In this document: positions 10,558 to 61,714 of the stretch, piece by piece
Numbering within the stretch: the first letter of the stretch is position 1
Layout: the number at the start of each line of letters is the position of its first letter
NCBI GenBank assembly: GCA_951406725.2
Contig: OX597814.1
Location: 29,574,001-29,638,000, forward strand
Direction of reading: 5' to 3'
Length of the DNA stretch: 64,000 nucleotides
From: Octopus vulgaris
Taxonomy: Eukaryota
Notes under the pieces: generated by a model
The model's input: the letters and a program-made list of their open reading frames with translations, nothing else
Database searches by the model: none
What the model was told of the DNA's origin: nothing
Program-made: the position numbers and the translations under genes

Positions 10558-10648
10558 GCATCTTATTTTGGGGGAATTGTGCTAAATGGAGCCATCAGCA
10601 TAGCTCTTAAACACATCATCAAGGATCGGCGGCCACCACCATCACCAA
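10558..10648 (+). CDS. DOLPP1: Dolichyldiphosphatase 1, first coding exon visible in window (internal exon, 91 nt)
   Basis: Acceptor ttcttattaaag|GCA and donor CCAA|gtaagt. Translates ASYFGGIVLNGAISIALKHIIKDRRPPPSP, containing PAP2 motif 1 K-X6-RP (KHIIKDRRP); resembles human [26 protein letters not shown]. Frame joins the next exon. Confidence 0.9.
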
Positions 10649-11017
10649 GTAAGTACTTTATGACGACTTTCTTAAACCATTATTATTACATGAGAACAGA
10701 ATGGTGCCCTACTCAACATATACTGTGGACATAAAAGTTACCTTACATTAGGGGTAGGCATAAAATTATATACTAAACACTCAGAAAATGAGTTGGTATT
10801 ATCCTGTAGAAGTGGAAGAGGTGGAGAAGGTTGGGTTCATGATGCTGAATATCATAAATAAAATGACAGAAACAAGTGATAAGGCCTTTTACAAGGACCT
10901 GTCCAACCCATGTTAGTATGGGAAACAATCATATAATTTTGATATAACTTCTGAAAATCTTCTAGTTAAATGTATGAACATACTTACTTAGAAATGTTTT
11001 TCTTTGTATGGCTGAAT

Positions 11018-11085
11018 TCTTTTCTAGTTCCGGTAATGATTCTGCTATGAGGGTCAGGTCATCAGCATAGAGGAGCTCCCTGGGG
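11018..11085 (-). mobile_element. Short RTE reverse-transcriptase fragment
   Basis: PRELLYADDLTLIAESLPELE, nearly identical to the RT peptide at ~54780. Confidence 0.7.
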
Positions 11086-11942
11086 GCTGAATGTAAAACT
11101 CTAATTTCTGGAGATGACTTTCTTCCTGAATTCCTTGGGTTATTTTTATTTTGTAATAGAAACATCCACACGGTTATTTTTGGTGACTGTCTAAACCATA
11201 GCCTATTTCTTTGGTTTCCTGTTGCAGTTTTCCATCTCTGATATGTGATGTATAATTTACATTAAAGACATCAACAGTAACATATGGATTGAGCCTTCAT
11301 CATCACATCAGATTGTTTTCATGCTGAGCTGTATTCAATATGATCTTCAAATTAAATTCTTTTTTTTAACTGTTACTAAATTAAATATTATAGTTTAGTT
11401 ATGTTTCTATATATAAAACCTCCTGAATATGGCTTGAAAATATATCTGGTTGTGAGGTCCTGGCTCTGGTGCTCCATGGTTTTGAAAAGTATGGAGCTAT
11501 CTCTTAGCAACTGTTATTCCAAGATTTACTCTGCATAGAGTTGTAGCACCTATCAGTGTCCCAGTTATGGGTTATTTAGTATGTTATGGAAGAAACCCCA
11601 AGCACAAACTCTCATTGCTTTGTGAGTACCTTGGGAAAGGGAGATGCTTGAAGAATTAACATCAATGGCAATTTAAGGAGTGGAGTCTCTCAGACTCTCT
11701 GGTGCTCCCTTTGACACTCTTTCAGAAACTCCAGCCTGTAAGTTCTTCACAACTGGCTAGTCTCATGCCACCTCTATCCAGGAACTCCCAACTCACTCAT
11801 CTCCCCTCTCTCCCCTCACCCATATGGTGTCTCTTCCACCTTAGGTCCTGCACTAGCCACTAGATCCAGTACTTCCTCCTCAGAATGTCAGTCAACTGAA
11901 ATTCCTTCTCTGCACATATATATCTGATAATCATTTATCTAA

Positions 11943-12163
11943 CCCTTTAGCATTCAAACCGGCCATACCCGGCCAGAATATTTAACCTGTTTTATATTGA
12001 AACTGACCAGAGCTTACCTCTTACCTCAGCCCTACCATGTCATTCTAAAACTGAAAAAACCACATCACTGTAATCTCTAAACTACAAGATAATACATGAT
12101 TAATTCAAAACAATATAAATAAACAAACATCACATTTGACAGAATAATCTGAACACTAAAGGG
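11943..12163 (+). mobile_element. piggyBac-type MITE (~220 bp family)
   Basis: CCCTTTAGCATTCAAACCGGCC ... CTAAAGGG-TTAA. Confidence 0.8.
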
Positions 12164-14245
12164 TTAAAGTTTTTGAGAGGAACATTAACTCTGTCAGTTT
12201 CATCTGTGCTGTACAGGACTTGTGCAATGTTGTATACCAAACCATTCAAAATAAACATTAATAAAACAACAAAAGCCCATCTATTTTCTTCACTGTATCT
12301 TAATTTTTTTTTTTAATCTCCATACAGAAGAAGAGTTGTTTCGTAACAATCTACTGCACTGTTCTATAACTATCTGGGTGTGGAAATTAATTAGTAGGTT
12401 CGTTGTGGGTCAACACTTGAAGCTTCAAAGAAGTGTGTCAAAGGTTATCAACTCAGTGCATCTCATCACTCTCCAGGTTATGATGAAGTAAAAAGACTCA
12501 AATGTGAATTGAACCTACATTGCAGACTCAGCTTGGCTACTGCTTATCCATATTCTATGATCCTTGCAATGAAATATTATTTGTTGAGGTTGTGTACCAC
12601 ATAATATTGGGTCACTGGGTTACCATAAAAGATTTTATCTTCCTGTCAAGCGCTGTTTCATATTACTGGTGCTGGCACCATACAAAAAGCACCCAGTACA
12701 CTCTGTAGAAGTGGTTGGTGTTAGGAAAGGCATCCAGCTATAGAGATCATGCGAAAGCGGACAATGGAGCTTGGCACAGTCCTTAAGTTCACCAGTTCCT
12801 CTCAAACCTTCCAATCCATACCAGCATGAAAATCAGATGTTAAATGATGATGGTCGTCATGTATTTGGTGAACCAGCCTGGTCATATTCATTCTTTACCA
12901 AATTATAATCCTAGAGAGAGTTAATTTTGGTATTACAAACTGGTTAAAGACTCATCACTTTCACAATACTCCTGCTGCTTGTATTTTTCTTAGACATACC
13001 ACAGTACTAGTGATTGAATAAGAAGCCCTCTTTCTATTGGCCTATGCAGTCATGACTCTCCAGTAAAGTATGTTTGAACTAAATATCTGCTGGAGAATGA
13101 CTGTAATTGTTCCAAAATTTAATTATGTTATTTAGATTGGCTGATTATTGTTGTTTCATATCCTTGTGGCACTTTGGGAAATAAACTATTTTGTAGGTTA
13201 TTACATATTAAGTAGGTTAATTAACAAATGCAATGTCTTTAAATTCTTTATGAGTCACATTATAGTATATCTGCTCACTAAAACTAAAACATGGGCTGTA
13301 ATAATATCCAAGCCTGCCTCAAATCTACGGGCTCATGAGGCTGGAGCTAATCCAAGTTTTAAAGAGAGCTGAGAGCACAAGATTCCACCTGGGAAGGATT
13401 GAGCCAGTCTGTCATAGGTCACAGAGTTAACCCTTTGGGATTTAAGCTGACCATATCCAGCCAAAATACCTGTTTTATGTTTAACACCTGTTTTATGTTT
13501 AAACTAACCAGATTCAGCCTTTCACATCTTCCTTACAATGTTATTCTAAAAAAAATAAGTGCTGGGGTCAATTCATTCAACTAAAATTCTTCAAGGAGGT
13601 GCCCCAGCATGGCCCCTGTCTAATGACTGAAACAAGTAAAAGATAAAAGAATAAAGAGGTAATTAGCTCCACTTTCTTTAGTTCTAAGCAGATACTTAAA
13701 AAGATAAAAAACCTTGGATATGATACCTTTTGTTGTGACGGTTATTTTTCTTTTGTCGAAGGAAAGTATGGTATGGTACCATTGTTCATTTCAGTTATCT
13801 TAGACATCTCACTGGATGAAACAATGAATCTTATACAATAATTTATGAATCCATCTTGTTCACTTATTAAATCCCCAAATCTACTAATCAGTTTCTCAGT
13901 TTCAGTGTGTGTGTGTAATTATCGCCATCATTATTTTAATGTCTGCTTTTTTATGATTGCATGGGTTGGACGGGATTTCTTGAAGCAGGTTTTCTACAGC
14001 CAGATGCCTTTCCTTTCACCAACCAAGCAAGGTAATATTCCCCATGACCATACATGCTTTCATAGAAGATTAGAAACAAAGGAGACTGCTTGCATGAGGA
14101 TGCCATTAGTTTTCAAAGGTCTCCTGAAGTCAAGCCAAGGAGACAGTAACACACACACACACACACACATAAAGGGCCTCCTTCTGTTTCTCTCTTCCAC
14201 TTCGGCTCTCAAGGCTTTGGTCAGCCCAAGACTGCAGTTGTCTTG

Positions 14246-14830
14246 TCATCATCATCATACATCTGTTTTCCATGCTGGCATGGGTTGGATGTTTCGACTG
14301 AAAACTGGTAAGCTGGGGAGATGCATCAGGTTCCAGTCTGATTTGGCATGGTTTTTATGGCTGGATGCTCCAAGAGTGTAGTGGGTGCTTTTTATGTGCC
14401 ACTGACATGACACAGGTCTACATAAGCACAGTATATCGCCAAAGGTCTCAGTCACCTGTCACTTCCTCCATGAGGCCCAACAATTAAGCAATGCTTTTTA
14501 CGTGCTGCCTGCACAGCTGCCAGTCAGACGGTCCTGGCATTGGCCATGACTACCATTTCACTTTGCTTGACAGGTCTTCTCAAACACAGCAAATCAACAA
14601 AGGTCTTGATAACATGTCATCACCTTCGTAAGGCCCAACGTTCAAAGATCATGCTTCACTTCATCCCATGTCATTCTGGGTCTACCTCTTCCACAGGTTC
14701 CTTCCAGTTAGAGTGTGGCACTTCACTCAGCTGTCCTCATCAATACGCATCACATGACCATATCAGTCTCTCTTGCACACCACATCTGATGCCTCTTATG
14801 CCCAACTTTTCTCCCAGAACTCTTACACTC
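14246..14830 (-). mobile_element. RTE LINE 3' end (coding tail plus 3' UTR, family C)
   Basis: Decayed post-RT coding sequence (14580-14830) runs into the family C tail ...ccaacccatgccagcatggaaaac...(GAT)n. Confidence 0.7.
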
Positions 14831-14867
14831 ATTTTTCTAATTTACAATTGGCCAGGAAGACATAGAA

Positions 14868-15232
14868 TGAAGTCCTGAAGGACAACCTCAGGACACTGAA
14901 CCTTTCAGACAAGATGACAAAGGACCGAGATACCTGGCACCTTGCTATACTCAAGAAGAGCTGTCCTTCACAGAAGACGTATTAAAGCCACTCCCTCTGG
15001 TAAAGAGGATCGGCCAGTAAGATCTTGTGCCAGTGCCTTGTAAGAAGCGCTTGTGCTGGTGCCATGTAGAAGCACTGATGCAGTGCCACATAAAAGCACC
15101 CAGCACACTCTGTAAAGTGGCTGGCATTAGGAAGGGCATCTAGCCATAGAAACCATGCCATCTCCAGCTTGCTGGCTCTGGTCAAAGCATCCAACTCATG
15201 CCAACACGAACAGCAGGCATTAAATGATGCTG
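14868..15232 (+). mobile_element. RTE LINE 3' end (coding tail plus 3' UTR, family C)
   Basis: EVLKDNLRTLNLSDKMTKDRDTWHLAILKK, then ggcattaggaagggcatc...gatgctgat. Confidence 0.7.
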
Positions 15233-15320
15233 ATTTCAATTTTGCTAAGATGGCATTGTTATCTAACAATAACTATGTTTCCATACACAGTTGGGTATTT
15301 GTTGCTCCCGTTTATGGTTT

Positions 15321-15500
15321 GGGTCGCAAACATGTCCTAGCTTGCAGCCAGTTAGTGACTATGTCCATACTCATGTCAGAGTAGCAAACATGTTCCTGCT
15401 CTTGGTGGGACTATAATCATGTCCCTGCTCTCAGCTGAGCTGGAAACATGCCCCATCCCTCTCAGTCAGGTTACAAATATACCCTCACTCTAGTCAAGGC
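15321..15500. repeat. Degenerate ~29-bp minisatellite
   Basis: About six units sharing (a)aCATGTCC(c)tgCTC. Confidence 0.5.
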
Positions 15501-15593
15501 AGTAACTAAGGCTAGATGGTTGACAAAAAAAAAAAAAAAAGATAGTGCTGATGATGTCAAAATAAGACTGAAACATGTCCTCCAGATTTGTCT

Positions 15594-16658: not shown

Positions 16659-16752
16659 ATCAAATTCATATTGGTATTTATGGAATGCCTTCAAGTCACT
16701 CTCAGTTCATGGGTTTTTTTAATACATATCTTATCTTATTTTTGTTATTTAG
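16659..16752 (+). CDS. DOLPP1: Dolichyldiphosphatase 1 internal exon (94 nt)
   Basis: ttattcag|AT...TTTAG|gtaagt. Translates (N)QIHIGIYGMPSSHSQFMGFFNTYLILFLLF(R); YGMPSSHSQFM is the DOLPP1 form of PAP2 motif 2. Confidence 0.96.
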
Positions 16753-23795: not shown

Positions 23796-23888
23796 GCTTT
23801 ATAGAAACTACAATTGGATAGATGACTCATGGAAAATTGTAGTTAGTTGCTTAACATGTATAGTAACAGTGTTAGTATGTATTAGTCG
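23796..23888 (+). CDS. DOLPP1: Dolichyldiphosphatase 1 internal exon (93 nt, phase 2-2)
   Basis: gtttttcag|G...AGTCG|gtaagt. Translates LYRNYNWIDDSWKIVVSCLTCIVTVLVCIS(R): a transmembrane segment ending in the SR of motif 3. Confidence 0.92.
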
Positions 23889-27920: not shown

Positions 27921-28049
27921 AGTTTACTTAGGATATCACTTTGTTAGTCAAGTGCTATGTGGTGCTCTTCTGGGAATGATTCTAGGTGCGGCATGGTTTT
28001 GTACAGTTCATCTAATTTTGACACCATTCTTTCCAGTTATTGCAGCAAG
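27921..28049 (+). CDS. DOLPP1: Dolichyldiphosphatase 1 internal exon (129 nt, phase 2-2)
   Basis: tataatacag|A...GCAAG|gtaagt. Translates VYLGYHFVSQVLCGALLGMILGAAWFCTVHLILTPFFPVIAA and completes PAP2 motif 3 SR-X5-H-X3-Q (SRVYLGYHFVSQ). Confidence 0.96.
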
Positions 28050-31820: not shown

Positions 31821-31910
31821 TTTAATAGGTGAATTTTTAATGGTAAGGGACTCAACTCTAATTCCTCATGTTATGTGGTTTGAATACAAATCTTCCAGAA
31901 GTGAAGCCAG
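31821..31910 (+). CDS. DOLPP1: Dolichyldiphosphatase 1 internal exon (90 nt)
   Basis: ttaatttcag|T...GCCAG|gtaaag. Translates (S)LIGEFLMVRDSTLIPHVMWFEYKSSRSEA(R), matching human EFFLIRDTSLIPNVLWFEY...RAEAR. Confidence 0.95.
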
Positions 31911-34003: not shown

Positions 34004-34102
34004 TATATTTTATCATTTGATTTATGTTAATAATTTGATAACTGAAAAAGTTTTGCCTCATAAAGCTGAAAAATACAATTTCTAATGTTTCTTTTATTTC
34101 AG

Positions 34103-34142
34103 GAACAGGCAGAGAAAAGTAACTGGTCGCAAGTCACAGTGA
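34103..34142 (+). CDS. DOLPP1: Dolichyldiphosphatase 1 last coding exon
   Basis: cttttatttcag|G AAC AGG CAG AGA AAA... gives NRQRKVTGRKSQ* (human NRQRKLGTKLQ*). TGA at 34140-34142 is followed directly by TAA. Confidence 0.93.
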
Positions 34143-34396
34143 TAAGTTAGTTGCACAACTGCAAATAACTTTGCCTACTTCTTCTAGCAGTCAGTTCACC
34201 GTTAGCTGAGGAAAGGCTGGGACATGTGGCTAGCAAATAATGGCCTAGCACACAAGACTGCTTCACAACTCAACTGTCAATAGACTGAGTGACTGATTGA
34301 CACAAATCAACAATGTAACTAACGAGAATTATATACTGGAAGATATAGAAATTTCAATGCAAGGACAATGAAAAAATTATGACTTACAAATACATA

Positions 34397-34411
34397 AATA
34401 AAATGAATAAA
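34397..34411 (+). promoter_or_regulatory. Candidate proximal polyadenylation signals of DOLPP1 (two AATAAA)
   Basis: AATAAA at 34397-34402 and 34406-34411, about 255 nt after the stop. The region is AT-rich, so chance occurrence is possible. Confidence 0.35.
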
Positions 34412-37400
34412 TATTAAGACTGAATATAAGAGAAATCTGGAAGAAATCATATTTCTATCAGCAGAAATCTTAATTATAATCACTGATACCACAACTGATA
34501 TTGTGAGTGCATTTGTGCTTCAGTTTAGAATATGACAGCTCTTACACAAGAAGAGGAATACAGTGAACAACACTGTCTTTTTCTTCCAATTCTCTTCCAG
34601 TGATGTATGTTAATAATTTTATTGCATTTCTTTATTATTTGTGATAAATTATCTGTTTTTATATCTGTTTTGTGTCGCTCTTACATTCTCATTACAGTTG
34701 TTGTTGAATAGCCCTGGTCAGTACTGCTTGAGCAAGCAGACCCTATGATTCAGAGGTAGCTGGTTGAACAATGCATTAATTATTATTATTGTTGATATGT
34801 TGTCCTAAGATTTAGGGCATAAAACATGATCCTATTTTTTAAAAATAATGGGAGGAGATTTGGCTATTGAATTGAGTAAATCAAGATCACTTGTTGGCTC
34901 ATTCCCATCACATTTTCAAAAAATAGATGAAAAGTTATTGTTTTGTAGATGATTGTGATAAAGTTGATGGCATTAAAAAGTAATAAGAATCGTTAGAAGA
35001 AAATGGAGCTACAAAGATACATAAAAATGATGACTGCTGTTTTATAGGTAATTTTAAAAGTTTGCTATTCTTTATTCTGCACATCAGTGTTGGAATTAAA
35101 CATAAATCATTTTCATAAACAAGGTTAGTAAAATAAACTAGTAAACATTTGGCAGGTTTTACTGTTCCAGTAACAAAATCAGCTAGATAGAATAATAAAC
35201 AGATAACATTTTGGTTTTATTATTCTGTTTAGATGTATATCCTGAACTTTCAACATTTTGGGTGGGACACCTGTGAGAAGAAATAGGTATAGAGTTTTAT
35301 CATTATCATGAGATAATCTGTAATTGAGAAAGATATCTTCCTGGTGTGTCTGACAAGTTTCATGTGGAATGAACTGTAACACTGCAGCATGTAATTAAAA
35401 GCTGTTGGTCAGATTCATTTGCAATGAAGATTGGAGATTACTGAAGAGAAAGACTTCCTGCTGTCTTCTTTAGGTCAGTAGTTAAGCTTGAACTAAAATG
35501 TTACTAGCCAAGTTAACATTAATTATAGCCCTCCTGATTGTTACAGTTGTGAGTTAATCTGTGAACAAAAAGGGTCCTGTCTGAAATATCTAACCTCATA
35601 TTATCTCACAGCAGGTGAACTATGTTATTCTACAAAATTTATGGTTAAAAAATGGAATGAGTTGGAAGAGTTATGTGTCTTGACAACAGACATAGAACAA
35701 GTGATGGCATATGAAACAAAATCAGTCTGTAGTCCAACATGACTAAGGTAACTGCAAATCTACAATGCAAACTGACCAAATAAAAGATATTTTCTGTTGG
35801 AAGAAGAAAACTACATATTTTCATATTTTCTTTAACTCTTAATATAAATCCTCCCAAGACTGTATTTAAATTAACTCATTATTATATACAAAATTACAGT
35901 AGCTGAAAGAGTCTTTCTTAAATTTTCTTCTAATTACCCAATTAACATTTCTCTGAATAAAAAGATTTCTGTTATTCAGAAATTTGGGTGGGTTTAGTAA
36001 AATTAATTGGATTACTAACACAATCTCTTCTTAGAAATTTGGCCATGAAGAAATTAAAAATGTGCATATCCCATGAGCTACAAACAGCAAAAAGAAAATG
36101 ATGGTGGAGCAAGAATGGACTTTTATGAGTATTTAATTTCCATAAGTGTATATTTTTACAAATAAATATTAAAGGTGTTTAAATATATATTTTTAAGTAG
36201 AAATCAATTTTTTTTTTTTCAAATTTTATAGTTGATTCTCAAACAGAACATGAAATAACTTTACACTCTATAATTTTTTTTTTTTTTAATAAGATCAGTA
36301 ATCAGATGGGTGACATGTTAGGTAAATAGAAGCCACACTGAATAATTACAATTAAAAATGCTTTCTGAAAAATAAACTTCCCAGCGTTGTAAAGAAGTGA
36401 TAAGTATTGTACATCCAAAAGAGCATCAGCCCTTTGTTAATTTTTATCATATAGCCTGCTAAAATTTTATTAACATTATTCAATAATTTATAAATTCCCT
36501 TTTCATAGAATAACCTCAACATAAAGGCAGGAATTTATAGAAAAGGATAAATTCAGTTTAAGTTTAAAATTTTGATAGTACCCAATACCCCACTCATCCC
36601 TGGGTCCAATGTGGCTGGTAGGAGGAAGTTATCCTCAAACTTGAGGGCTGAACTAAATTCTTGTTAAGAAGGAGCAGGTGGTGGAAAAATGGATGAAGTC
36701 TTAACATCCAAGAATTGAAAAAAATAATACAAATCATTTCATTCAATGCTCTAACTCATTACCCTAGACTGATACTTTATTTTAGTGACCCTGACAAGAT
36801 GAAAGGCGAAGTTGACCTTTGCAGAATTTAAACTTCAGAGTTACCTGGAACAATTACTACAAAGTATTTTGTCCTATGTTCTTACAATTCTGTAAATTTG
36901 CTGCCTACTAAGGTTAGTTCGACTATACACAAAAAATAAAATAAGGAGTCTGTACTTAGCTATAATACTTATTATTTTACTTTTCCCTACATTAATACAG
37001 GCAATATTTAATTTCATTATAGCTGTACTGGCAACATGATACATTTCTTCCTAATTAGCATGTGATATCTTATGGTCATTAGCTGGTTAGATTAGAACAG
37101 CTGGTTTATATGTATTCATGGCTAGTCTCTTTATATCAAGTTTTCCCCCTTTTAATTTGGGTTGTGTGTTGAGGCTGAACAACAAAGTATCTAAATTGAT
37201 GACATACAATACTCATTAAATCTATGAGTTTCAATTCTAATAATTAAAAGATAACTTAGATTTCAAAAGCCTTGGTTTGCTTTTCTTTCCATTTTATCTT
37301 TCATCCAGAACCTTCTTTAAATTGGATAATTTAAGATTTATACAGCGAAAGTTCCTCTAAGAATACTATCTTATCCATTTTTACCATTCTTTTTAATTGT

Positions 37401-37966
37401 ATAGTTTAATGATGTAACAGCATTTTAAGTTAGGTTCCCCTCTATCAAATCTACCATTTATGTAAAGGATCAATCTGTTTTATCAGTACACCCCTCACCT
37501 AAGCACTTGCTCAAAACATGTATTATATATGGATATAAATAACATAATATAAATATGTAAATAATAAAGATATTAATTTTTAATTTGCTTCAACTGCAAC
37601 CAATTTCATGGCCTTAAAAAATATAACAAATCATTTATTTACTACTCAGTAACACATGAAATAATAAACAATATCAGTAACATGTTAAAATTTATTCATT
37701 TGATTTTACATTTTAAAAAAAAGTTTATCAACAGCAAAATTTAAAACAAGTTTAAGGGTAAATATATTTTGATTATATTGAGTTTCTTCCCACCCACCAC
37801 AAAAAAAAAAAACAAAGTCAAAATCAAGAATTCAGTTAAATTTTTTTCTTTTCTTCAAAGATTTTTGTTTTCTTTGAGATATCACAGAACAGATGAAGTT
37901 TATATTTTTTCTAGGACATTAGCTGCCTTTTAACACCTATTTCAGCACCAACAAAAGAGAATTATA

Positions 37967-37999
<33 letters not shown>

Positions 38000-39683
38000 G
38001 TATATATATGTATGTGTGTGTATGGTATATATATTGCATTTCATGAAATGAAATCAATATTTTGGGTCATCCAATGCTCAAGAAATACAGGAACACATAT
38101 CAACCAATAAGTAGTTGTTTTTTTTTCTTTAATTCTTTTATTCTTCAACTCTTCAGGTGGAAAAAAAATTTTTTGTAGTAAATAAAGGAAAATATGGGAC
38201 TTTTTTTTTTTTTTTTTTTTTTTGATGAGAAAGAACCTTATATGGTTATTTAATTCCATTTAATATAAATTATGAAATTGAAGAAAACTGAATTGTTTCT
38301 TCACCAAATGTATGCAAAGGAGAATCTGAATGTCTTAAATAAAAGTAAATGGAAAATTTTTTTCTTTCACTTATTGTGTAGTATTCATCTTTTCTTTGAT
38401 GCTGGAACCCAATGCCTTGTTTGGCACTGCCAAATGAAATGATGAAATGAAATGAAATATTGAAAAAAAATAAGCAGATTTTTACAATTAATATTGGTCT
38501 GAATTTCCAATTAGTTAAATGGCAGATTTTTTTTAGCATTGAAACTAACTTTATCTTAGTTAGTCTTATTGTTGCTTTAATGTTGATTTAATTTACCTAT
38601 TTTTGAATAATAACTGGGCAAACGGCCTTATCTGACATTAAGTGTAAAATGCATTAAAAAATAATGGTAAACACTCAGATTTAAAACCTCTGGTTTTTCA
38701 GAGAATAATGAAGCAAATATAACATTGCTATTAGTCTAATGAAGGAATAAATATCTAAGAGAAATGTCAGTTACTAAGACAATTCTTACTAAGACCAGTC
38801 TTGTGCGTATAAGTAGGTGTACACACATACTTTTTTGCTATGGAAATTCTCATGGAATTACATTTTGAGGAACCATTTGGAGTTTATTTAGAAGGAAAAC
38901 AAATACTAAGTGTTATCTCAGGGTATTGATGGAAATAAGATTTTTTTAAAAAACCCATTACAGTAAAATGGCAAATTATCTTTTAAAAGTGGTGAGAGGT
39001 GTAGAAAGAAGCTTTCTGTTCTCAATCTGGAGTTATTGATAACATTTTATTTGTGAGTTGTATTTGTTTGATAAAAAGAGAATATGACTACTTTGTGTGT
39101 TCAGGCTTTCTTAAACCCAGTAACAGTATAAATGCATTAAAACAGCTTGAAGCAGATAACTGAAACTAAATTAGAAGTCAGGCTTGCTGCTGGAAGCATT
39201 TGTCTACTTTGTGGTACTCACCAATTAGTGTTATTACTTGAAATAATAAAAGTGGACATGTTTATAGCCAACTACTGATAATATGTAGTTCTGGCTAAAA
39301 GGCACTAATTTCTACGAGTAAAGAATTCTCTTGAAACTAATAGAGTGATAAATATTTGATCTTATTATCTTATATTGAAATTACATTAAACAGAAAAGTC
39401 ATTTTGATTTACTAGTGTTTAAGTTCTCTAATAGGAGTTTTAGAATAGATCTAACACTAATATTTATTACTTTTCTCAAGAGATAAAGTATTCCAAATTA
39501 TATTCATAGAATTGTTAATGTTGAATACCTAGATATTGTCTAAGTGAAATTATATACTGTGTGTGTTCTACAATAGCTTCACTAATGATAGATGTAAAAA
39601 TTGATTTTGTTTTTAAATTTTGCTTTTTTTATCTTTGAAGTAATTGACAATTTTTACTGCTTAGGATTCTTGTTCACTGTAGT

Positions 39684-39902
39684 TCAAAGTTTAGAGACAG
39701 GAGGTTCTTGTTGTAAAAGGTGATATATGTCAGTAAGGCTCTGATGGATTGAATTTGTCATTTTCTTTGAACATGTATCTGGACTTGTATTGAGTGCTGA
39801 CACAGCAATTAGAATATGAGATTTTTGGCAGTTATAGCATATACCAAAGCCATCTGGTGCTGTAGGCCCAAAGTTCATAGAACAGTTATATTTACTTGAA
39901 AC
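39684..39902 (-). CDS. CRAT: Carnitine O-acetyltransferase last coding exon (219 nt), ends in PTS1 SKL
   Basis: Minus-strand acceptor ttcattcccag|GTT. Translates VSSKYNCSMNFGPTAPDGFGICYNCQKSHILIAVSALNTSPDTCSKKMTNSIHQSLTDIYHLLQQEPPVSKL*; FGP..PDG.G.CYN is a carnitine/choline acyltransferase signature. Confidence 0.96.
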   Translation of the reverse strand, partial: VSSKYNCSMNFGPTAPDGFGICYNCQKSHILIAVSALNTSPDTCSKKMTNSIHQSLTDIYHLLQQEPPVSKL

Positions 39903-40181
39903 CTGGGAATGAAATAAATATATATATATGTAACAGAAACATTTAGTAAGGGAATATTTCTCTTATATGAAATAGTTTCTTTAAAGCTTTATTAATAAAT
40001 CAAAATTGAAAAAGCAACTCTACCAATTTTTTTGCCACCAATCATACCAAGAATAATTGAAAGATGTTGAACCCACTGCTAGTTTAATTACCATTCCACT
40101 TAAAATCAAGTCGATCCAAGAATGATTTTGAACCAGAGTAGTGAGGAAGCAAATTAAACTATTCTAATCTCTAATGTTTCC

Positions 40182-40969: not shown

Positions 40970-41107
40970 CTGGCTACTTGAGATCTTGTGATGCACACTT
41001 GTTGCATAAGCAGTGTCCATGAACAGATTTGGTATGTTCATTCCTTTCTCAATAGCTATAAGCTTTAATCCAAGAAGATGTCTGTCAATTGCTTGACCAC
41101 TTATAGC
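40970..41107 (-). CDS. CRAT: Carnitine O-acetyltransferase internal exon (138 nt)
   Basis: ttgcag|GCT...CAG|gtaaac. Translates AISGQAIDRHLLGLKLIAIEKGMNIPNLFMDTAYATSVHHKISSSQ, with the DRHLLGL motif. Confidence 0.96.
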
Positions 41108-41910: not shown

Positions 41911-42109
41911 ATCATTTATAAGGTTTTTGTGAGTTTGAATAGCTTGATGGAGGAACTGTAGCTTTTCATTGACTGGCACCCCAGTGTCATCCATGGCACG
42001 AGTGAACAAGTAGGAAGGAACAGTACAGGAGCGTATTGTGTCAGTTCGACCCAATTTGAAACGACGTGTTGATCCACTTTCATATGTGGCACATGGTTCA
42101 GAATATACC
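41911..42109 (-). CDS. CRAT: Carnitine O-acetyltransferase internal exon (199 nt)
   Basis: ttttcattag|G...GAT|gtaagt. Translates VYSEPCATYESGSTRRFKLGRTDTIRSCTVPSYLFTRAMDDTGVPVNEKLQFLHQAIQTHKNLIND, with the TYES and GRTDTIRS motifs. Confidence 0.96.
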
Positions 42110-43756: not shown

Positions 43757-43879
43757 CGATAATAAGCTAATTGCAATGCTATCTGAACAAGTGCATCTGG
43801 ACTTAGCTTCATAGATTTTGCAAATTCTTTACCAAACCTTGTGTAATCTGTGATGGTCAAATCAACATCACCTATCAGG
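43757..43879 (-). CDS. CRAT: Carnitine O-acetyltransferase internal exon (123 nt)
   Basis: ttttaatttag|C...TATCG|gtgagt. Translates LIGDVDLTITDYTRFGKEFAKSMKLSPDALVQIALQLAYY(R), with the FGK..K..KLSPDA..Q.ALQLAYYR motif. Not present in the ORF track. Confidence 0.96.
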
Positions 43880-45145: not shown

Positions 45146-45502
45146 ATCATCATCATCATCATTTAGCGTCCGTTTTCCATGCTAGCATGGGTTGGACGGT
45201 TCAACTGGGGTCTGTGAAGCCGGAAGGCTGCATCAGGCCCAGTCAGATCTGGCAGTGTTTCTACAGCTGGATGCCCTTCCTAATGCCAACCACTCCGTGA
45301 GTGTAGTGGGTGCTTTTTACATGCCACCCGCACAGGTGCCAGGCGGAGTTGGCAAACGGCCACGAACGGATGGTGCTTTTACATGCCACCGGCACGGGGG
45401 CCAGGCAAGACTGGCAACGGACACGAACGGATGGTGCTTTTACGTGCCACCGGCACGGGGGCCAGGCGAGGCTGGCAACGAACACGAGCGGATGGTGCTT
45501 TT
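45146..45502 (-). mobile_element. Family C repeat
   Basis: Reverse copy with three tandem units. Confidence 0.8.
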
Positions 45503-45507
45503 AATAA

Positions 45508-47260: not shown

Positions 47261-47380
47261 GAATCGATATTTTCTTTAGCAGTTTCAATGGCTGACTGGA
47301 TATCATGCCCAATATTAAATTTCAATTTAACAGGCTCTTGAACTCCTGCAGCAGGAAGCACAATATTTTTTTTTTGCAAG
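47261..47380 (-). CDS. CRAT: Carnitine O-acetyltransferase internal exon (120 nt)
   Basis: tttattttag|C...GATTC|gtaagt. Translates LQKKNIVLPAAGVQEPVKLKFNIGHDIQSAIETAKENID; P.KL.FNI...I...IE.AK matches CRAT and phases fit both neighbours. Confidence 0.9.
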
Positions 47381-50167: not shown

Positions 50168-50268
50168 CAGAAATCAAGGGCATGATCTATAAGCGACACA
50201 AGAACAACGCCTTCCGCTGATGTATGTTCATAATTTAAACCACTAACTCCATCATGGCCAATGATTAT
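50168..50268 (-). CDS. CRAT: Carnitine O-acetyltransferase internal exon with catalytic histidine (101 nt)
   Basis: atttgtag|ATA...TTCTG|gtatgt. Translates IIIGHDGVSGLNYEHTSAEGVVLVSLIDHALDF; YEHxxxEG is the catalytic HxxxE motif. Confidence 0.96.
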
Positions 50269-53097: not shown

Positions 53098-53279
53098 CTG
53101 TAAGGTTTTATCAAACCATCGGTTTCCAGTATTCATTTCACTTCCTCCTCCATGAAGCATCATTCCACCAGCCATAGACATTTTTGCGACAGGATCTTGT
53201 ATCAATGGCATAGGTTTATCCAAACATAACACAAAAAGACTATTTTGAATAGACTGTAAAGAAGCTTGGTTCTTTTTAT
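53098..53279 (-). CDS. CRAT: Carnitine O-acetyltransferase internal exon (182 nt)
   Basis: ttttacttcag|AT...CAG|gtaact. Translates (D)KKNQASLQSIQNSLFVLCLDKPMPLIQDPVAKMSMAGGMMLHGGGSEMNTGNRWFDKTLQ, with the LHGGGS..N.GNRWFDKTLQ signature. Confidence 0.97.
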
Positions 53280-53914
53280 CTGAAGTAAAATGAAAGCACA
53301 TCTGCAATTAGTTGCAGCACTGTCACAGATATAGGAGTAGTATTCTATAAGAACAGAAAGAATTTATTATCAGAAAAATGATAAAAGTCTTGTTTTCAAT
53401 CAGAATTTTATAAACCCCAAAAATATAAATAAAAGGAAAATATAAAAAAAAAAGAGAAGCAACTTTACATAACAGCCATAATTTCTATATTTTTTAAAGA
53501 ATATTCTTTTCTACTCTAGGCACAAAGACTCTGGTCCTTAATTTATCAACGCCAAAAGGTTGAAAGGCAAAGTTGACCTCGGCAGAATTTGAACTCAGAA
53601 CATAGCACTGGACAAAATACCGCTAAGCATTTTGCCCAGTATGCTAACTATTCTGCCAGCTTACCGCCTTATTTTATGAAGAACATTGTCTGACATTTAT
53701 ATTTGTTGAAATAATAATTTTTTTTACAGCTAGATGCTCTTATTACTAACCACTTGACTGCGTTAGGTTAAGAAAATTACAAGAAGTATTAGTTTACAAT
53801 GAATAATTCAATACATGAATGGACACAATAAAAAACATATGACCATTTATAACCATAACGTGTATGTTCATAATGGAATGGAAAAAAAAAATGAGACAGA
53901 AATCATTCTCAGAA

Positions 53915-54937
53915 CATTTGAACGGAGACGGATGCTTGAACAGAGATGTGTAAATTTGGGCTGCATCCAAGAAGTAAGGTGGAGAGGAGGTTCTGCTAGG
54001 TTCCTCACAGGCAAAGAAAATAGGTACAAGATTTTCTGGGCAGGGAACACTGACGGGGTCAGGAGCGTGGTTATACTTTTTGTGGAGAAATGGGTTGATA
54101 AGGTAATTGAGGTAGTCAGTGTCTGCGATAGAATACTTGTGATTAAATTAGTGCTACATCATGGGTTAGTAACCATTATCTTGGCCTATGCTCCTCAGCC
54201 GGGGCTACCTGATGGACAGAAAGACCGATTTTATGACACCCTCTTGCAGACTACCTCGTTGATGAATGACAGGGACCTTCTCTTTGTGGCTGATGACTTC
54301 AATGGGCCTGTTGGACAACATGCAGGGGGCTTCCATGGCATACATGGAGGCTATGGTTTTGGTTCCCACAATGAGGAAGGGACCAGGCTGCTGGAGTTCT
54401 GCCTTGCAAATGATCTTATAGTTTGCAATACTAACTTCAGGAAATCTGCCAGTCACCTAGTCACCAACCAATCTGGTAGACACACTAATTAAATTGACTA
54501 CAACCTTGCCAGGAAAAGGGAAAGGTGACTACTTATAAATGCCAAAACCTTCCCAGGCGAAGAATGTACCCCACAACATAGACTAGTAGTTAGCGACTTC
54601 AGGATCAGGGCTAGTGAGAGCTGTGCAAGCCATGTACAGGGATGCTGTCAGTAAGGTGAAGGTTGACAACGAGTACAGTGAAGAATTCCGGGTAGGGGTA
54701 GGGATCCACCAAGGATCAGTCCTCAGCCCCCTCTTCATAGTACCCCAGACAATAATAGAGGAATTCAAGACAGGATGCCCCTGGGAGCTCCTCTATGCTG
54801 ATGACCTTGCTCTAATTGCTGAGTCATTATCAGAACTAGAGGAGAGGTTTCAGGTGTGGAGGCAAGGATTAGAATCAAAGGGCCTTAGAGTCAGCCTAGC
54901 TAAAACCAAAGTCTTAATGAGTAGGAAGGCAGACAAA
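53915..54937 (+). mobile_element. RTE-clade LINE remnant: APE endonuclease fused by deletion to a partial reverse transcriptase
   Basis: ORF 53815-54492 has CIQEVRWRG, AYAPQ.G, DFNG.VG and GYGFG..NEEG.RLLEFC (EEP domain). ORF 54614-54985 has G.HQGSVLSP and LLYADDL (RT). Stops and a large internal deletion near 54613. Confidence 0.9.
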
Positions 54938-55195
54938 TCATCATTTAACATCTGTTTTCCATGCTGTTTCCAGGCTCCAATCTGATCTGGCAATGTTTTT
55001 ACAGCTGGATGCCCTTCCTAATGCCAACAACTCCAAGAGTGTAGTGGGTGCTTTTTATGTGCCACCATCACAGAAGCCAGTCAGGCGGGCTTGGCATCAA
55101 TGATATATATATATATATATATACACATATCGTCTTTAGAAAAACATGAATACAGAGAAGAAGCACACTCTAAGAAGTAGAGTTTCCCATCCATA

Positions 55196-55636: not shown

Positions 55637-56369
55637 TAAATAGAATATTTTGGAGGGAATTTTTTCTCCTTCTAAATGAGAGCTTAGCAATGCAAAGAGT
55701 GTACTTAAAGGAAGTTAAAAGTTCAGTCTGTTGTAGAACAACAGGCTATTAATTATAACAATTGTTGTTGATAGCAATAATTACTTATTTCAAACTGCCT
55801 ATTAGTGTCCTACAGTCCTCCTGTTAATAAAGGACTATTTAAAATAGTGAGAGTATTCCCAACTGAATATCCTGTCAAGCCACCATGGATTATGTTCAAA
55901 ACCAAGATTTGTAATCTAAATATTGATGAAAACGGATGGACTTCATTATCTGATATGATCTTATCTTGAAGATGGTTGGGTATGCTTTCAGAGAAATTTC
56001 GCTGCTATTACTAGCAGCTTGAGCAACCACATAGAGGCTTTCATTTTTGGCAAAGATGGTGGAAAGTCAAACTTACAGTTTTTAGTTTATTTCCCTACAT
56101 TCTGAGATAAAATCACGGTAGAGTTGATTTAGTTCTTTTTTTTTTATTTATAGAATTAAAGTTCATTTAAACAACTATAACCTTTAAATAGGTTTTGGGC
56201 TAAATCAAAACAATTCAGTATTTTAATAAAATTTATTGCCTTGCACCAAAGTCAGATTAATTATAATCATCATCATCATCATCAGTTTATGTTTTTTCCA
56301 TGCTGACATGTGTTGGCCAAGTCTTCAACACAGCATCTCACTACTTGTAGTCAGCATCATCTCCTTCGT

Positions 56370-57354: not shown

Positions 57355-57980
57355 CAGTTTGTCCGTCAATGCGATAAAGACCATCTAGTCATCCTGGGGT
57401 GGGAGTGGGCTTGTTTTGTGAGTCCACAGATGGGTAGTGAGGCCAATCTGCACTCGAAAGAGTCTCTGACAGTGTGGACAGGGAATGGTAGCACCTGCTA
57501 CAGGGTTGTTAGCTCTGTTCTTCCTGGCTTGTCTGCAGTCTTCTGCAGTAGCGATCCTATTGGTCTCGCATGTGTTGGTACCCTTGTGGACAGCTGATTG
57601 CTACCCTTCTCTGTCTAGAGCAGACTGCTCCCAAGTGTCATGGTCGATGTTGAAGGCTTTCAGTGTGTCCTTAAAGTGCTTCTTCTGGCCGCCTTGTGAG
57701 CACTTTCCCTTTTGCAGCTTGCTAAAGAGCAATCTTTTTGGTAATTGATCGTCAGACATGCGAGCTACATGCCCTGCCCAGCAAAGCTGAGACTGCATCA
57801 AGATGGTATGGATGCTGGGCAGGTTAGCATGTATTGGTACCTCAGTGTCCGGGATCCTGTCCTGCCACTTTATGCCGAGAAGTTTTCTGAGGCATATTGC
57901 ATGAAAGTGATTCAGTTCCTGGCATGATGCTAGTAGATTGTCCAGGACTCGCAGTCATAAAGCAGCGCTGTGAGAACAAT
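57355..57980 (-). mobile_element. RTE-clade (BovB-like) LINE 3' fragment
   Basis: QLCWAGHVARMSDDQLPKRLLF..L..GK.SQGGQKK.FKDTLK, followed by a CPHC...H...H zinc-finger-like C-terminus; frameshifted. Confidence 0.85.
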
Positions 57981-58619
57981 GCTGATTATTACTCACAACG
58001 CTGATTATTACTAGAGTGACAATACAGCTTGGATTAAGAATAAACAGTGTCATATCCACATTTAGTATCACAGTAAAATTAGGGCCCTTGGGGCTTTTTC
58101 AGGAGCTTTGCCATTAAAATCAAATTAACCAGTCTCACTGTTATTTCAGCACAAGACCCCAAGACACATGGAGACAAATCCATAAATATATATAGTCATC
58201 ATCATTGTTTTAATGTCAACTTTTCCATGCTTGTAAGGATCAGGTGGAATTTGCTGACACAGATTTTGTATTGCTTAGTATCCTTCCTATCACAAACCCT
58301 TGCCTGTTTTCTAAGCAAGGCAAAATTTTTCTATGGTAAGACATTTTTTTTTTCTAGAAGACTGGACATGAACAACATTGCTTGTATGATGGTGAAGTTC
58401 AATTACAATCATCACATGATGTCAAGACAAGGACACACACACACAACAGGTTTCTTTCAATTTCTGTCAACTAAACCCATTTAAAAGATCTGGGTCAGCC
58501 TGGGGCTATAGTAGAAGACACTTGTCCAAGATGCAGTACAGTAGGACTGAACCCAAAACCACAAGGCTGGAAAGTAAGATTCTCAACAACACAACCATGC
58601 CTGTGCCATCACCATAATT

Positions 58620-59207
58620 GGCATCCGTGCAAGTGGAGCGTTAAGAGTACCATCTGAGCGTGATCGTTGCCAAAGCAGCTAACTGGCTTCCATGTAAAAG
58701 GCACCATACAAGCATGATCGTTACCTGCATTGCCTTACTGGCACTTGTGCAGGTGGCACGTAAAAAAACATTCGGGCGAGGTCGTTGCAAGTGCCGCTGG
58801 ACTGGCTCCTGTGCAGGTGGCACATAAAGAACACCATTTGAGTATGGCTGTAGCCAGTACCACCTAACTGGCCCTTGTGTCTGGCACATAAAAGCACCCC
58901 TTCAACATGTGTCGGTGGCACAGCTGTACAAAGTGCCAACACATGTGAGACCATCGCTGCTGCAGAAGACTGCAGACAAGCCAGGAAGAACAGAGCTAAC
59001 ACCCTATTCCTGTCCACACTGTCAGAGACTCTTTCCAGTGCAGATTGGCCTCACTACCCATCGGAGTGGTTGACGTTAGGAAGGGCATCCAACTGTAGAA
59101 ACTCTGCCAGATCAGACTGGAGCATGGTGCAGCCATTTGGTTCGCCAAACCTCAGTCAAATCATCCAACCCATGCCAGCATGGAAAGTGGGCGTTAAACA
59201 ATGATGA

Positions 59208-59210
<3 letters not shown>
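58620..59210 (+). mobile_element. Family C repeat carrying an inserted RTE coding fragment
   Basis: Tandem units 58630-58900, foreign segment ~58901-59061, then the standard tail. Confidence 0.72.
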
Positions 59211-59243
<33 letters not shown>

Positions 59244-59248
<5 letters not shown>

Positions 59249-59657
59249 CATCATCATCATCGTTTAGCATCCGCTTTCCATGCTAGTATGGGTTGGACGG
59301 TTCAACTGGGGTCTGTGAAGCCAGAAAGCTGCATCAGGCCCAGTCTGATCTGGCAGTGTTTCTACGGCTGGATGCCCTTCCTAACGCCAACCAGTCCGTG
59401 AGTGTAGTGGGTGCTTTTACGTGCCACCCGCAGAGGTGCCAGACGGAGCTGGCAAACAGATACGGACGGATGGTGCTTTTTACGTGCCACCGGCACAGGG
59501 GCCAGGCGAGGCTGGCAACAGCCACGATCAGATGGTGCTTTTTACGTGCCACTGGCACAGGGGCCAGGCGAGGCTGGCAACGGCCACGATCGGATGGTGC
59601 TTTTTACGTGCCACCGGCACGGGGGCCATGGAAAGACTGGCAACGGCCACGAACGGA
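59244..59657 (-). mobile_element. Family C repeat with four tandem units
   Basis: GATGGTGCTTTTTACGTGCC starts at 59469, 59531 and 59593 (62-bp period). Confidence 0.82.
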
Positions 59658-60354
59658 TGATGATGATGATGATGATATATATATATATATATATATATAT
59701 GCTGCTGTTGTTGTTGCTGTTGATAATTTATGTTGCATTGGTACTTTAGTAATAACTGTAAGATCATCAACTTCATTAAAATGTATTGTATCAGTCATCC
59801 ATTTTGTTTACTTTATATCTATCTTTCTTTCCACCATTATCATTTGCAGTTTGGGAAATAAAAAAAAGAGAGCAAATAATGATAAACTGTTTAATAACAA
59901 AGAAGCCAGTCAGATTGACCTTCATCCCAAGCTACTGAAACAGCCCTAATTAACAGATGAACTAAATACATACAGAAAACAGTTTATTTATGTTTTAATT
60001 GCACGAAAGTCTTATTCTTAATATAACCATTACACATCGCCTTATTCAAGAGGTTTTGTCCAGAAAGTTAACTTGATGACCTCGCTGGTGCTGTGTAAAA
60101 AGCATTGAGTACACTCAGTAAAGTGATTGGCGTTAGAAAGAATATCCAGCTGTAGAAACTATGCCAAAGCAAACACTGGAGCTTGGCACAATCTTCTGGC
60201 TCATCAGCTCCTGTCAAACCATCCAACTCAAGCAGCTGGGAAAATGAACATTAAATGATGATGATGATGACCATTAGACTATTTTACTGTTCATTACTCA
60301 TCAATTACAGAAGGATGAAGTGCAAGGTCACCCCCTCCCCTCAATAGAACTTAA

Positions 60355-60573
60355 CCCTTTAGTGTTCAGATTATTCAATCAAACATAATACTTATTGATT
60401 CCCATTGATTTGAATTAATCATGCATTATCTCATATCTTCAAGATCTTGATGGTGTAATTACTTAATGTAGAATAACATTGCAGGATAGGTGTGAGAGCC
60501 TGGATCTGATCAGTTTGAACATAAAACAGATTAACTATTTTGGCCGGATATGGCTGGTTTAAATACTAAAGGG
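60355..60573 (-). mobile_element. piggyBac-type MITE (~220 bp family)
   Basis: TTAA-CCCTTTAG ... CTAAAGGG-TTAA. Confidence 0.8.
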
Positions 60574-60803
60574 TTAAATGTTGGAACACAGAATGGCAAA
60601 TCTGATAGTAGTGTGGAGTGACCAGATTTGATGTGTTACCAATTTATGACAACTGCTCTACTATGATACATAATAATGTAACCATACTTCTACGATTACA
60701 TTCAAATTTATTTTTTTAATCTACTTACAGTTTGTATGCAAGCAGGATAGTTTTACATTTCAAATATTTTCAAATATTAACATGAAAAGAACATAAACAT
60801 GTT

Positions 60804-60989
60804 AGGCGCAGGAGAGGCTGTGTGGTAAGTAGCTTGCTTACCAACCACATGGTTCCAGGTTCAGTCCCACAGCTTGGCACCTTGGGCAAGTGTCTTCTAC
60901 TATAGCCTCGGTCTGACCAAAGCCTTGTGAGTGGATTTGGTAGATGTAAACTGAAAGAAGTCCATCGTATATATGTATATGCATGTATA

Positions 60990-61026
<37 letters not shown>

Positions 61027-61245
61027 GTGTGCATGTGTTTGTGTGTCTGTGTTTGTCCCTCCAACATCGCTTGACAACCGATGCTGGTGTGTTTACATCC
61101 CCGTAACTTAGCAGTTCAGCAAAAGAGACCGATAGAATAAGTACTAGGCTTACAAAGAATAAGTCCTGGGGTCTATTCGCTCAACTAAAGGCGGTGCTCC
61201 AGCATGGCCGCAGTCAAATGACTGAAACAAGTAAAAGAGAAAAGA
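60804..61245 (+). mobile_element. tRNA-derived SINE, family A
   Basis: Full-length copy. Confidence 0.85.
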
Positions 61246-61542
61246 TGTTTAGGCGTAACTGATTCAACAAGCTGCCTAAATTCTAACTGTGTGATTTCTA
61301 CTATGAGCATGAGGCCACAAATTTTGATGGTGGGGGTGTAGTCAGTTATATTAACCTCATTACGTGACTAGTAATTGAAACCCCCCCACACACACACACA
61401 CACACACACAAACCAAGTAGATGAAAGACAAAGTCAATACTGGTGTGATCAGACATAATCAAAAGCTGCAAGGTCTGTCATTAAGTGTGCTAACTGAAAA
61501 TTAAGTGCAGGCATCTACTGGGAGAATATTAAAATGAAATAC

Positions 61543-61714
61543 CTTTCATCAATTTTTTATGGATTTTGGCCCATGCATTTCGATTTTCTGAAGTTAAAAT
61601 TCCAACAGGTGAAGTAGAATGCTTTGATTCAGACTTGATAGTCTTCAGTTGTTTGTATATTTGCTCAGCATTCAGAGGTTTGTTTTTCTTGCCAAATACT
61701 TGCAGGGAAAATAA
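61543..61714 (-). CDS. CRAT: Carnitine O-acetyltransferase, most 5' exon visible in window (172 nt)
   Basis: aattttctag|TTA...AAAG|gtattt. Translates LFSLQVFGKKNKPLNAEQIYKQLKTIKSESKHSTSPVGILTSENRNAWAKIHKKLMK, with the PVGILTS..R..WAK motif. Phase 1 end joins the 53279 exon. Confidence 0.94.

What the first reader, a model, noticed from the sequence alone, without database searches (positions are those of the whole stretch)
10558..61714. DOLPP1 and CRAT are convergent neighbours, as at human 9q34
Seen: DOLPP1 (+) and CRAT (-) stop codons are 5.5 kb apart with no gene between them. Established: human DOLPP1 and CRAT are adjacent tail-to-tail at 9q34.11, with PTPA head-to-head with CRAT. Inference: if this is a cephalopod, the pair has stayed linked since the bilaterian ancestor, despite the heavy genome reshuffling reported for coleoids. 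That suggests a constraint such as shared 3'-end or regulatory elements between two unrelated lipid enzymes.
Basis: partly seen in the sequence, partly recalled or inferred. Interest (0 to 1): 0.7.

Follow-up and report, generated by a model that had tools for sequence, protein, structure and literature searches.

The report
Octopus DOLPP1–CRAT tail-to-tail gene pair
In this octopus DNA two unrelated housekeeping genes, DOLPP1 and CRAT, end 5.5 kb apart tail to tail and are also close neighbours in humans and birds; this is likely an old neighbourhood that likely survived because the short gap is a small target for rearrangement, and nothing found here points to a shared function.

Summary
The window is Octopus. 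Six DOLPP1 exons (+) and eight CRAT exons (−) splice cleanly and match named octopus proteins (178/178 and 417/417 residues). The stops are 5,541 bp apart, with no gene detected between them. The acyltransferase is CRAT, not ChAT, CROT or CPT2.

The two genes share a chromosome in Argonauta, Mytilus and Solemya, and are neighbours in human and birds. In a toy model, chance gives only 0.05–0.2 shared convergent adjacencies per genome pair, so ancestry is more likely than coincidence. However, both intermediate lineages that could be checked point to a break. Solemya's locus tags are 239 apart. In amphioxus the listed neighbour of DOLPP1 is QTRT1 and the listed CRAT/CHAT copies lie elsewhere. 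Both proxies are imperfect.

The gap is the window's longest repeat-free stretch and is CpG-poor, as expected if 3′ UTRs fill it. Short gaps can survive coleoid rearrangement passively. Hundreds of ancient gene pairs and blocks are already described, including 275 blocks kept in squid. No evidence of co-regulation was found. PTPA could not be checked.

Verdict: a real, likely ancient, ordinary microsyntenic pair. Interest is low.

The parts
10558..10648 (+). DOLPP1 coding exon, first in the window (likely exon 3; PAP2 motif C1, KxxxxxxRP)
   Evidence: tblastn and exact match to O. bimaculoides DOLPP1; AG/GT ends
16659..16752 (+). DOLPP1 coding exon (motif C2, PSSH)
23796..23888 (+). DOLPP1 coding exon
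27921..28049 (+). DOLPP1 coding exon (most of motif C3, SRxxxxxHxxxQ)
31821..31910 (+). DOLPP1 coding exon
34103..34142 (+). DOLPP1 last coding exon with TGA stop at 34140-34142
34143..39683 (.). 5,541-bp gap between the stops: 29% G+C, CpG o/e 0.09, 1% dispersed-repeat cover; likely mostly the two 3' UTRs (inferred, no transcript data)
39684..39902 (-). CRAT last coding exon; ends in SKL (peroxisomal targeting signal 1), then TGA
40970..41107 (-). CRAT coding exon (SSS version of the STS motif)
41911..42109 (-). CRAT coding exon (GRTDTIRS motif)
43757..43879 (-). CRAT coding exon
47261..47380 (-). CRAT coding exon
50168..50268 (-). CRAT coding exon with the catalytic histidine (YEHTSAEG)
53098..53279 (-). 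CRAT coding exon
61543..61714 (-). CRAT coding exon, first in the window (residue 215 onward); earlier exons lie beyond 64000

Best explanation
Octopus DOLPP1 and CRAT sit tail to tail with 5.5 kb between their stops, a neighbourhood likely inherited from the bilaterian ancestor and likely kept passively, because the short gap, likely filled by the two 3' UTRs, is a small target for rearrangement. Shown: the gene identities, exon structure, orientation, the empty gap, its lack of dispersed repeats, and co-location on one chromosome in three other molluscs. Inferred: that both genes come from the same ancestral chromosome (the proto-MHC element), that the adjacency is ancestral, and that UTRs fill the gap, so that most breakpoints or repeat insertions there would damage a housekeeping mRNA's 3' end. 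On this view the pair can and does break when the gap is hit (apparently in Solemya and amphioxus), and the two enzymes need no shared regulation. DOLPP1 recycles dolichyl pyrophosphate in the ER; CRAT buffers acetyl-CoA in mitochondria and peroxisomes (both functions are established knowledge, not tested here).
For: Gene models. CRAT class: 636 bits to CRAT against 416 ChAT, 311 CROT and 285 CPT2; TDT motif and SKL end. The DOLPP1 tree of 32 named proteins roughly follows the species tree, with many open forks, as expected of a single-copy family. Vertebrate neighbourhood. Chance convergent adjacencies 0.05-0.20 per genome pair, against about 595 known ancient pairs (PMC3514665) and 275 blocks kept in squid. 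The gap lies within the longest of 61 repeat-free runs in the window (6,162 bp, 34009-40170; next 2,856; median 379). Repeat cover is 1% against 29-36% in the intronic stretches. P=0.005 that this fixed stretch holds no repeat, using the conservative count. AT skew is about 0 in the gap against -0.07 and +0.04 in the two genes' introns. [quoted passage not shown] Conserved pairs have shorter gaps in all orientations (PMC3514665).
Against: Both intermediates that could be tested for adjacency point to absence (2 of 2: Solemya by locus tags, amphioxus by block table), so ancestry rests on two end points, vertebrates and Octopus. For Argonauta and Mytilus only the chromosome is known, not the distance. 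The survival calculation is an upper bound: applied to all short gaps it would predict far more cross-phylum adjacency than is seen (PMC8809688 reports near-complete loss). Judged as the longest run anywhere in the window, the repeat-free stretch has P=0.011, or only 0.11 if clustered repeats are merged. No transcript ends were available. Ancient pairs are enriched for head-to-head, not convergent, orientation. The toy model assumes uniform shuffling and may understate chance. In amphioxus the listed non-ChAT-like copy seems to lie on a different chromosome from DOLPP1.
Confidence: 0.58

Rival explanations
1. Coincidence with a head start: the two genes were on the same ancestral chromosome and became neighbours independently in vertebrates and in the cephalopod line through intrachromosomal shuffling.
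For: Solemya tags are 239 apart on one chromosome. Amphioxus DOLPP1 is flanked by QTRT1 in all five species, with no listed CRAT beside it, and MIGA2, the other vertebrate neighbour, is 160-460 ids away. Gene order within ancestral linkage groups is largely scrambled between phyla (PMC8809688). The scan found this pair after the fact, so a look-elsewhere effect applies.
Against: Only 0.05-0.20 such convergent coincidences are expected per genome pair, against many truly retained pairs. The amphioxus genes on the other side of DOLPP1 are unlisted, so a CRAT there is not excluded. Solemya may have a second CRAT copy, and its model is truncated at 519 aa.
Confidence: 0.25
2. One reading: the pair is ancestral and actively held by shared 3'-end or regulatory elements, for example overlapping 3' UTRs that couple the two genes' expression.
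For: The gap is nearly free of repeats and CpG-poor, and its strand skew is cancelled, which fits transcription from both sides. In yeast, overlapping 3' UTRs of convergent genes regulate each other (PMC3900390, abstract only). Retained metazoan microsyntenies in squid and octopus are co-expressed more than random ones (PMC9023564).
Against: The pair appears broken in 2 of 2 testable intermediates. The enzymes have no known shared pathway or compartment (established knowledge). In a human blood eQTL table the locus's SNPs are listed with PPP2R4, CRAT and five other transcripts but not DOLPP1 (PMC4581711); this is weak, as probe coverage is unknown. Self-comparison of the gap showed no long antisense match between its ends, and it holds no Rfam element.
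Confidence: 0.13
3. Hidden paralogy or an assembly artefact: the octopus acyltransferase is a different CRAT-like paralog, or the adjacency is a misjoin.
For: Amphioxus lists two CRAT/CHAT-family genes, neither on the DOLPP1 id range. The CRAT tree of 18 named proteins had no outgroup and carried a long-branch warning.
Against: Best hit to CRAT by 220 bits over ChAT, with diagnostic motifs and a PTS1. Both genes are on the same contig in Argonauta, an independent octopod assembly. The window has no N.
Confidence: 0.04

Closest known systems
Conserved ancestral microsyntenic pairs (CAMPs; Irimia et al. 2012, PMC3514665)
   Same: Two non-paralogous genes, adjacent in distant phyla, with a short gap.
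   Different: CAMPs need four or more major lineages; two are shown here. 55% of human CAMPs are head-to-head, and this pair is convergent. Whether it is on their list is unknown, because the supplement could not be read.
Metazoan microsyntenies retained in coleoids (Schmidbaur et al. 2022, PMC9023564)
   Same: Ancient local linkage surviving in a rearranged cephalopod genome (275 in squid).
   Different: Those are blocks shared with at least six distant species; only a pair is visible here. No visible squid row carries both a PAP2 and a carnitine acyltransferase domain, but long cells were cut and only squid rows returned annotation hits.
Vertebrate MIGA2-DOLPP1-CRAT-PTPA run on human 9q34.11 / bird chr17, part of the proto-MHC paralogon
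   Same: The same two genes are neighbours. In amphioxus DOLPP1 and MIGA2 lie among orthologs of MHC-paralogon genes.
   Different: MIGA2 and PTPA could not be checked in octopus (outside the window). In amphioxus MIGA2 and DOLPP1 are in separate blocks.
Genomic regulatory blocks and bidirectional-promoter pairs (e.g. HSPD1-HSPE1)
   Same: Known causes of deep microsynteny.
   Different: Neither gene is a developmental regulator, and the pair is not head-to-head.
Convergent genes with overlapping 3' UTRs (yeast, PMC3900390)
   Same: Tail-to-tail layout with a gap that may be all UTR.
   Different: Overlap and mutual regulation are untested here.

Membership tests
CRAT (carnitine O-acetyltransferase) | Closer to CRAT than to ChAT, CROT or CPT2 | tested here: met
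   636 / 416 / 311 / 285 bits against PDB chains; Pfam Carn_acyltransf E 4e-193; CPT1 has no chain in that list
CRAT (carnitine O-acetyltransferase) | Catalytic His; carnitine-type T[D/E]T motif (ChAT has VDN); Met at the short-chain selectivity position (roles recalled) | tested here: met
   YEHTSAEG and GRTDTIRS; Met aligned with the Met of mouse CRAT; STS reads SSS in octopods
CRAT (carnitine O-acetyltransferase) | C-terminal PTS1 tripeptide | tested here: met
   Ends SKL; vertebrate and Mytilus CRATs mostly end AKL or SKL
CRAT (carnitine O-acetyltransferase) | Groups with vertebrate CRAT in a rooted family tree | tested here: inconclusive
   18 named CRATs, no named outgroup, long-branch warning
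DOLPP1 (dolichyldiphosphatase 1) | PAP2 domain with motifs C1-C3 | tested here: met
   Pfam PAP2 E 2e-18; KHIIKDRRP, PSSH, SRVYLGYHFVSQ in the exons
DOLPP1 (dolichyldiphosphatase 1) | Single-copy family whose best relatives are DOLPP1s across animals | tested here: met
   Named hits among the 120 listed are DOLPP1 or hypothetical proteins; tree of 32 named proteins roughly follows phylogeny, 10 of 29 inner branches open
CAMP (Irimia et al. 2012) | Non-paralogous genes | tested here: met
   PF01569 versus PF00755
CAMP (Irimia et al. 2012) | At most four intervening genes | tested here: met
   None detected in octopus; human and bird distances
CAMP (Irimia et al. 2012) | Linked in four or more major lineages | tested here: inconclusive
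Genomic regulatory block | A developmental regulator with enhancers in a bystander gene | tested here: not met
   Both genes in the window are metabolic enzymes; genes beyond the window unseen
Bidirectional-promoter pair | Head-to-head orientation with a gap under 1 kb | tested here: not met
   Convergent, 5,541 bp between stops
Convergent pair with overlapping 3' UTRs | Transcript ends overlap | not testable with these tools
   No transcript data; composition is compatible; poly(A)-like hexamers are too frequent to place ends

The most novel reading that the evidence does not exclude
DOLPP1 and CRAT have stayed tail to tail in the vertebrate and octopus lines for over 550 million years because their long 3' UTRs overlap or share a termination zone that couples their expression. 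That would be a 3'-end constraint on gene order, distinct from shared promoters and enhancer blocks, and the 6-kb repeat-free island in a repeat-rich octopus locus would be its footprint.
Probability: 0.1. Interest if true: 0.55.

Novelty: new member of a known kind. Interest (0 to 1): 0.24.

Why it matters
Single gene pairs shared across phyla are a known and populous class, and coleoids keep hundreds of such linkages, so one more pair changes little. This pair was not found in print as an invertebrate linkage: searches for DOLPP1+CRAT (6 papers, all vertebrate or human by title), for both enzyme names (1 paper), and in supplements of five synteny papers found no such statement. Some supplements were cut, id-only or unreadable. 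Its value is as a test case: convergent ancient pairs are the least explained class, and a repeat-free gap in a repeat-rich genome lets one test passive survival against 3'-end coupling with existing genomes and long-read transcriptomes.

Tried and rejected
1. Accession numbers of the mollusc proteins, as a proxy for gene order, could not be obtained. Adjacency in Argonauta, Mytilus and O. bimaculoides therefore stayed unchecked, and only contig lengths and locus tags were used.

2. No tool here holds eukaryotic genome context, so nautilus, scallop, limpet, annelids and cnidarians were not examined for adjacency, and PTPA upstream of CRAT stayed unchecked. DOLPP1 locus tags were listed for Patella, Lottia, Batillaria, Elysia, Tegillarca, Pinctada and others, but the CRAT list was dominated by vertebrates, so only Solemya gave a pair.

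3. Supplements. PMC3514665: none readable. PMC8851819: 0 hits in 7 files, two of them cut. PMC9023564: 0 hits by gene name; three single-domain rows, none with both families. PMC8809688 data files: ids only, 0 hits by name. PMC13508932: 0 hits in 2 files. The 2015 octopus genome paper was not held.

4. The search of 50%-identity representatives gave 150 unnamed proteins, which were left out of the trees. A Pfam scan of 13 long ones for fused gene models found 0 of 13 with a PAP2 or PTPA domain.

5. Poly(A) hexamers in the gap (26 on +, 24 on −) are too many in 29% G+C sequence to place transcript ends.

6. The bacterial promoter and terminator scan and NCBIfam are not suited to this locus and gave nothing useful. 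Two weak Pfam hits below their cut-offs (Toxin_YhaV on a LINE fragment, DUF4987 in the gap) were rejected as noise.

7. No structure or complex prediction was run: the proteins are of known families and are not claimed to bind.
Full report
What is in the window. The 64 kb is AT-rich animal DNA with no gaps. One exon searched against the protein collection returned CRAT of Octopus vulgaris (98%) and O. bimaculoides (92%) among the top hits; another returned DOLPP1 of O. bimaculoides (100%) and Argonauta (95%). With these named proteins as guides I placed six DOLPP1 exons on the + strand (10558-34142) and eight CRAT exons on the − strand (61714-39684). All 14 have AG acceptors, the 12 internal ones have GT donors, and both spliced frames are open. 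Identity is 178/178 to O. bimaculoides DOLPP1 and 417/417 to the O. vulgaris CRAT record. The organism is therefore an Octopus at or very near O. vulgaris. Both genes' 5' ends lie outside the window, so PTPA and MIGA2 cannot be seen.

The gap. The stops are 5,541 bp apart. Of 79 reading frames of 30 aa or more in the gap, none matches Pfam, and the window has no Rfam or tRNA hit.

Orthology. Against solved structures the acyltransferase scores 636 bits with CRAT, 416 with ChAT, 311 with CROT and 285 with CPT2. It has the catalytic His, the carnitine-type TDT motif, a Met aligned with the selectivity Met of mouse CRAT (roles recalled) and a C-terminal SKL. A tree of 18 named CRATs separates cephalopods, Mytilus and vertebrates but had no outgroup and gave a long-branch warning. 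The phosphatase has all three PAP2 motifs, and a tree of 32 named DOLPP1 proteins roughly follows animal phylogeny, with 10 of 29 inner branches open. Unnamed records were left out of both trees.

Vertebrate side. In human a SNP inside CRAT is 8.2 kb from PPP2R4 (PTPA) and 12 kb from DOLPP1 (PMC4581711, passages). In tits PTPA, CRAT, DOLPP1 and MIGA2 fall in one 50-kb window of chr17 (PMC10516731, passages). A pig table lists DOLK, CRAT, PTPA and DOLPP1 together (PMC10048629, one passage). The human strand arrangement is recalled, not from a call.

Is it more than chance? I simulated 7,000 orthologs on 24 ancestral linkage groups, with 13,000 and 11,000 other genes and full shuffling within chromosomes; these numbers are my assumptions. 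Three settings gave 0.57, 1.51 and 2.63 shared strict adjacencies per genome pair, and 0.05, 0.12 and 0.20 that are convergent in both (200 runs each). Truly retained pairs are far more numerous. About 595 ancient pairs are described, 55% of the human ones head-to-head, with short gaps in all orientations (PMC3514665, parts 1-2 of 7 and passages; supplement unreadable). Squid keeps 275 ancestral blocks against 216 in scallop (PMC9023564, passages), even though coleoid chromosomes are mixtures of ancestral groups (PMC9068888, passages). Before looking at intermediates, ancestry is strongly favoured, and survival in a coleoid is not exceptional.

Intermediate lineages: molluscs. No tool holds eukaryotic genome context, so I used proxies. 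The genes therefore share a chromosome there. For Solemya the locus tags are ScPMuIL_009823 (DOLPP1) and ScPMuIL_010062 (CRAT class by PDB score), 239 apart. If tags follow position and there is no second CRAT, the pair is broken.

Intermediate lineages: amphioxus. Dataset S2 of PMC13012124 (three searches and part 46 of 77) puts DOLPP1 at the end of a block PPAN - two unnamed genes - TRMT1L - QTRT1 - DOLPP1 in all five species. Its id range also holds GTF2H4, VARS, ABCA, PRRC2, SLC39A7, ZDHHC12, CERCAM and MIGA2. That is likely the proto-MHC chromosome, which the paper matches to human chromosomes 1, 6, 9 and 19 (section 14; the human positions of these genes are recalled). The two listed CRAT/CHAT-family genes are in distant id ranges. 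One is near TIMM23, PLA2G12 and GPRIN and is likely ChAT; the other is beside PROSER3. The genes on DOLPP1's other side are in no block (9 consecutive ids in B. lanceolatum; at least 7 in Asymmetron), so a CRAT there is not excluded, but it is not listed as conserved across the five species. Thus 2 of 2 testable intermediates point to a break, each by an imperfect proxy. This lowers ancestry from near-certain to about 0.7 and argues against a strong constraint.

What could hold the pair. The gap differs from the introns around it. Dispersed repeats found by self-comparison cover 1% of it against 29-36% of the intronic stretches. It lies in the longest of 61 repeat-free runs (6,162 bp, from just before the last DOLPP1 exon to just past the last CRAT exon; next longest 2,856). 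For this fixed stretch P is 0.005; as the maximum anywhere in the window P is 0.011, or 0.11 when clustered repeats are merged. Masked CpG o/e is 0.09 against 0.20 and 0.28 in the two genes' introns, and AT skew is about 0 against -0.07 and +0.04. The simplest reading is that 3' UTRs and termination zones fill most of the gap; this is inferred, since no transcript data were available. [quoted passage not shown] This is an upper bound, because gap sizes change and cross-phylum adjacency is mostly lost (PMC8809688, passages), but it shows that no special function is needed. PMC13508932 also notes that stable pairs can arise from constraint or from neutral persistence. Active coupling through overlapping UTRs is known in yeast (PMC3900390, abstract). 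Nothing here shows it, and the enzymes work in different compartments and pathways (established knowledge).

Novelty. Paper searches for the pair found only vertebrate gene lists, and supplement searches in five synteny papers found no record of it as an invertebrate linkage. The CAMP list, which could hold it, was unreadable, and two files were cut. PMC8851819 was seen through its listing and supplement search only; PMC7269912 and PMC9626663 through one or two passages each.

Verdict. The feature is real and likely ancient (passive retention 0.58, coincidence 0.25, active 3'-end coupling 0.13, paralogy or artefact 0.04). It is a new member of a well-known class, not a new kind of system. Interest 0.24.

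Noticed in passing
window ~55674-56100 (+), inside the 8.3-kb CRAT intron, antisense to CRAT: Intronless, stop-interrupted fragment of a ubiquitin-conjugating enzyme gene (Pfam UQ_con E 7e-9; best PDB match UBE2L3, E 1e-11); likely a decayed retrocopy.
   Followed up: partly
window 53803-54982 (+), 57604-57954 (-), 10965-11261 (-): LINE-like fragments: a reverse transcriptase piece (Pfam RVT_1 E 3e-9 at 54590-54982), an upstream frame that looks like an endonuclease by eye, and other RT-like pieces without a Pfam match.
   Followed up: partly
window 40970-41107 (-): The STS motif of the carnitine site reads SSS in Octopus and Argonauta CRAT, against STS in Mytilus and vertebrates; a conservative octopod change of unknown effect.
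   Followed up: no
window 1-10557: More than 10.5 kb upstream of the first visible DOLPP1 exon holds no match to the N-terminal residues, so this is one long, repeat-rich intron.
   Followed up: partly
window introns, e.g. 4486-4675, 8000-8124, 45309-45503, 59410-59659: A dispersed repeat family carrying tandem 61-64 bp units, together with other SINE-like repeats; absent from the gap between the genes.
   Followed up: no
PMC13012124 Dataset S2, block 1091 (Alu_ref_008912, Bfl_005982): The amphioxus CRAT/CHAT-family gene not in ChAT-like surroundings lies outside the DOLPP1 id range; either amphioxus CRAT moved chromosome or a second ancient CRAT-like paralog exists.
   Followed up: partly
representatives P0295 and P0340: Unnamed gene models joining an MFS transporter to a choline/carnitine acyltransferase domain, probably the known VAChT-ChAT locus predicted as one protein.
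   Followed up: no
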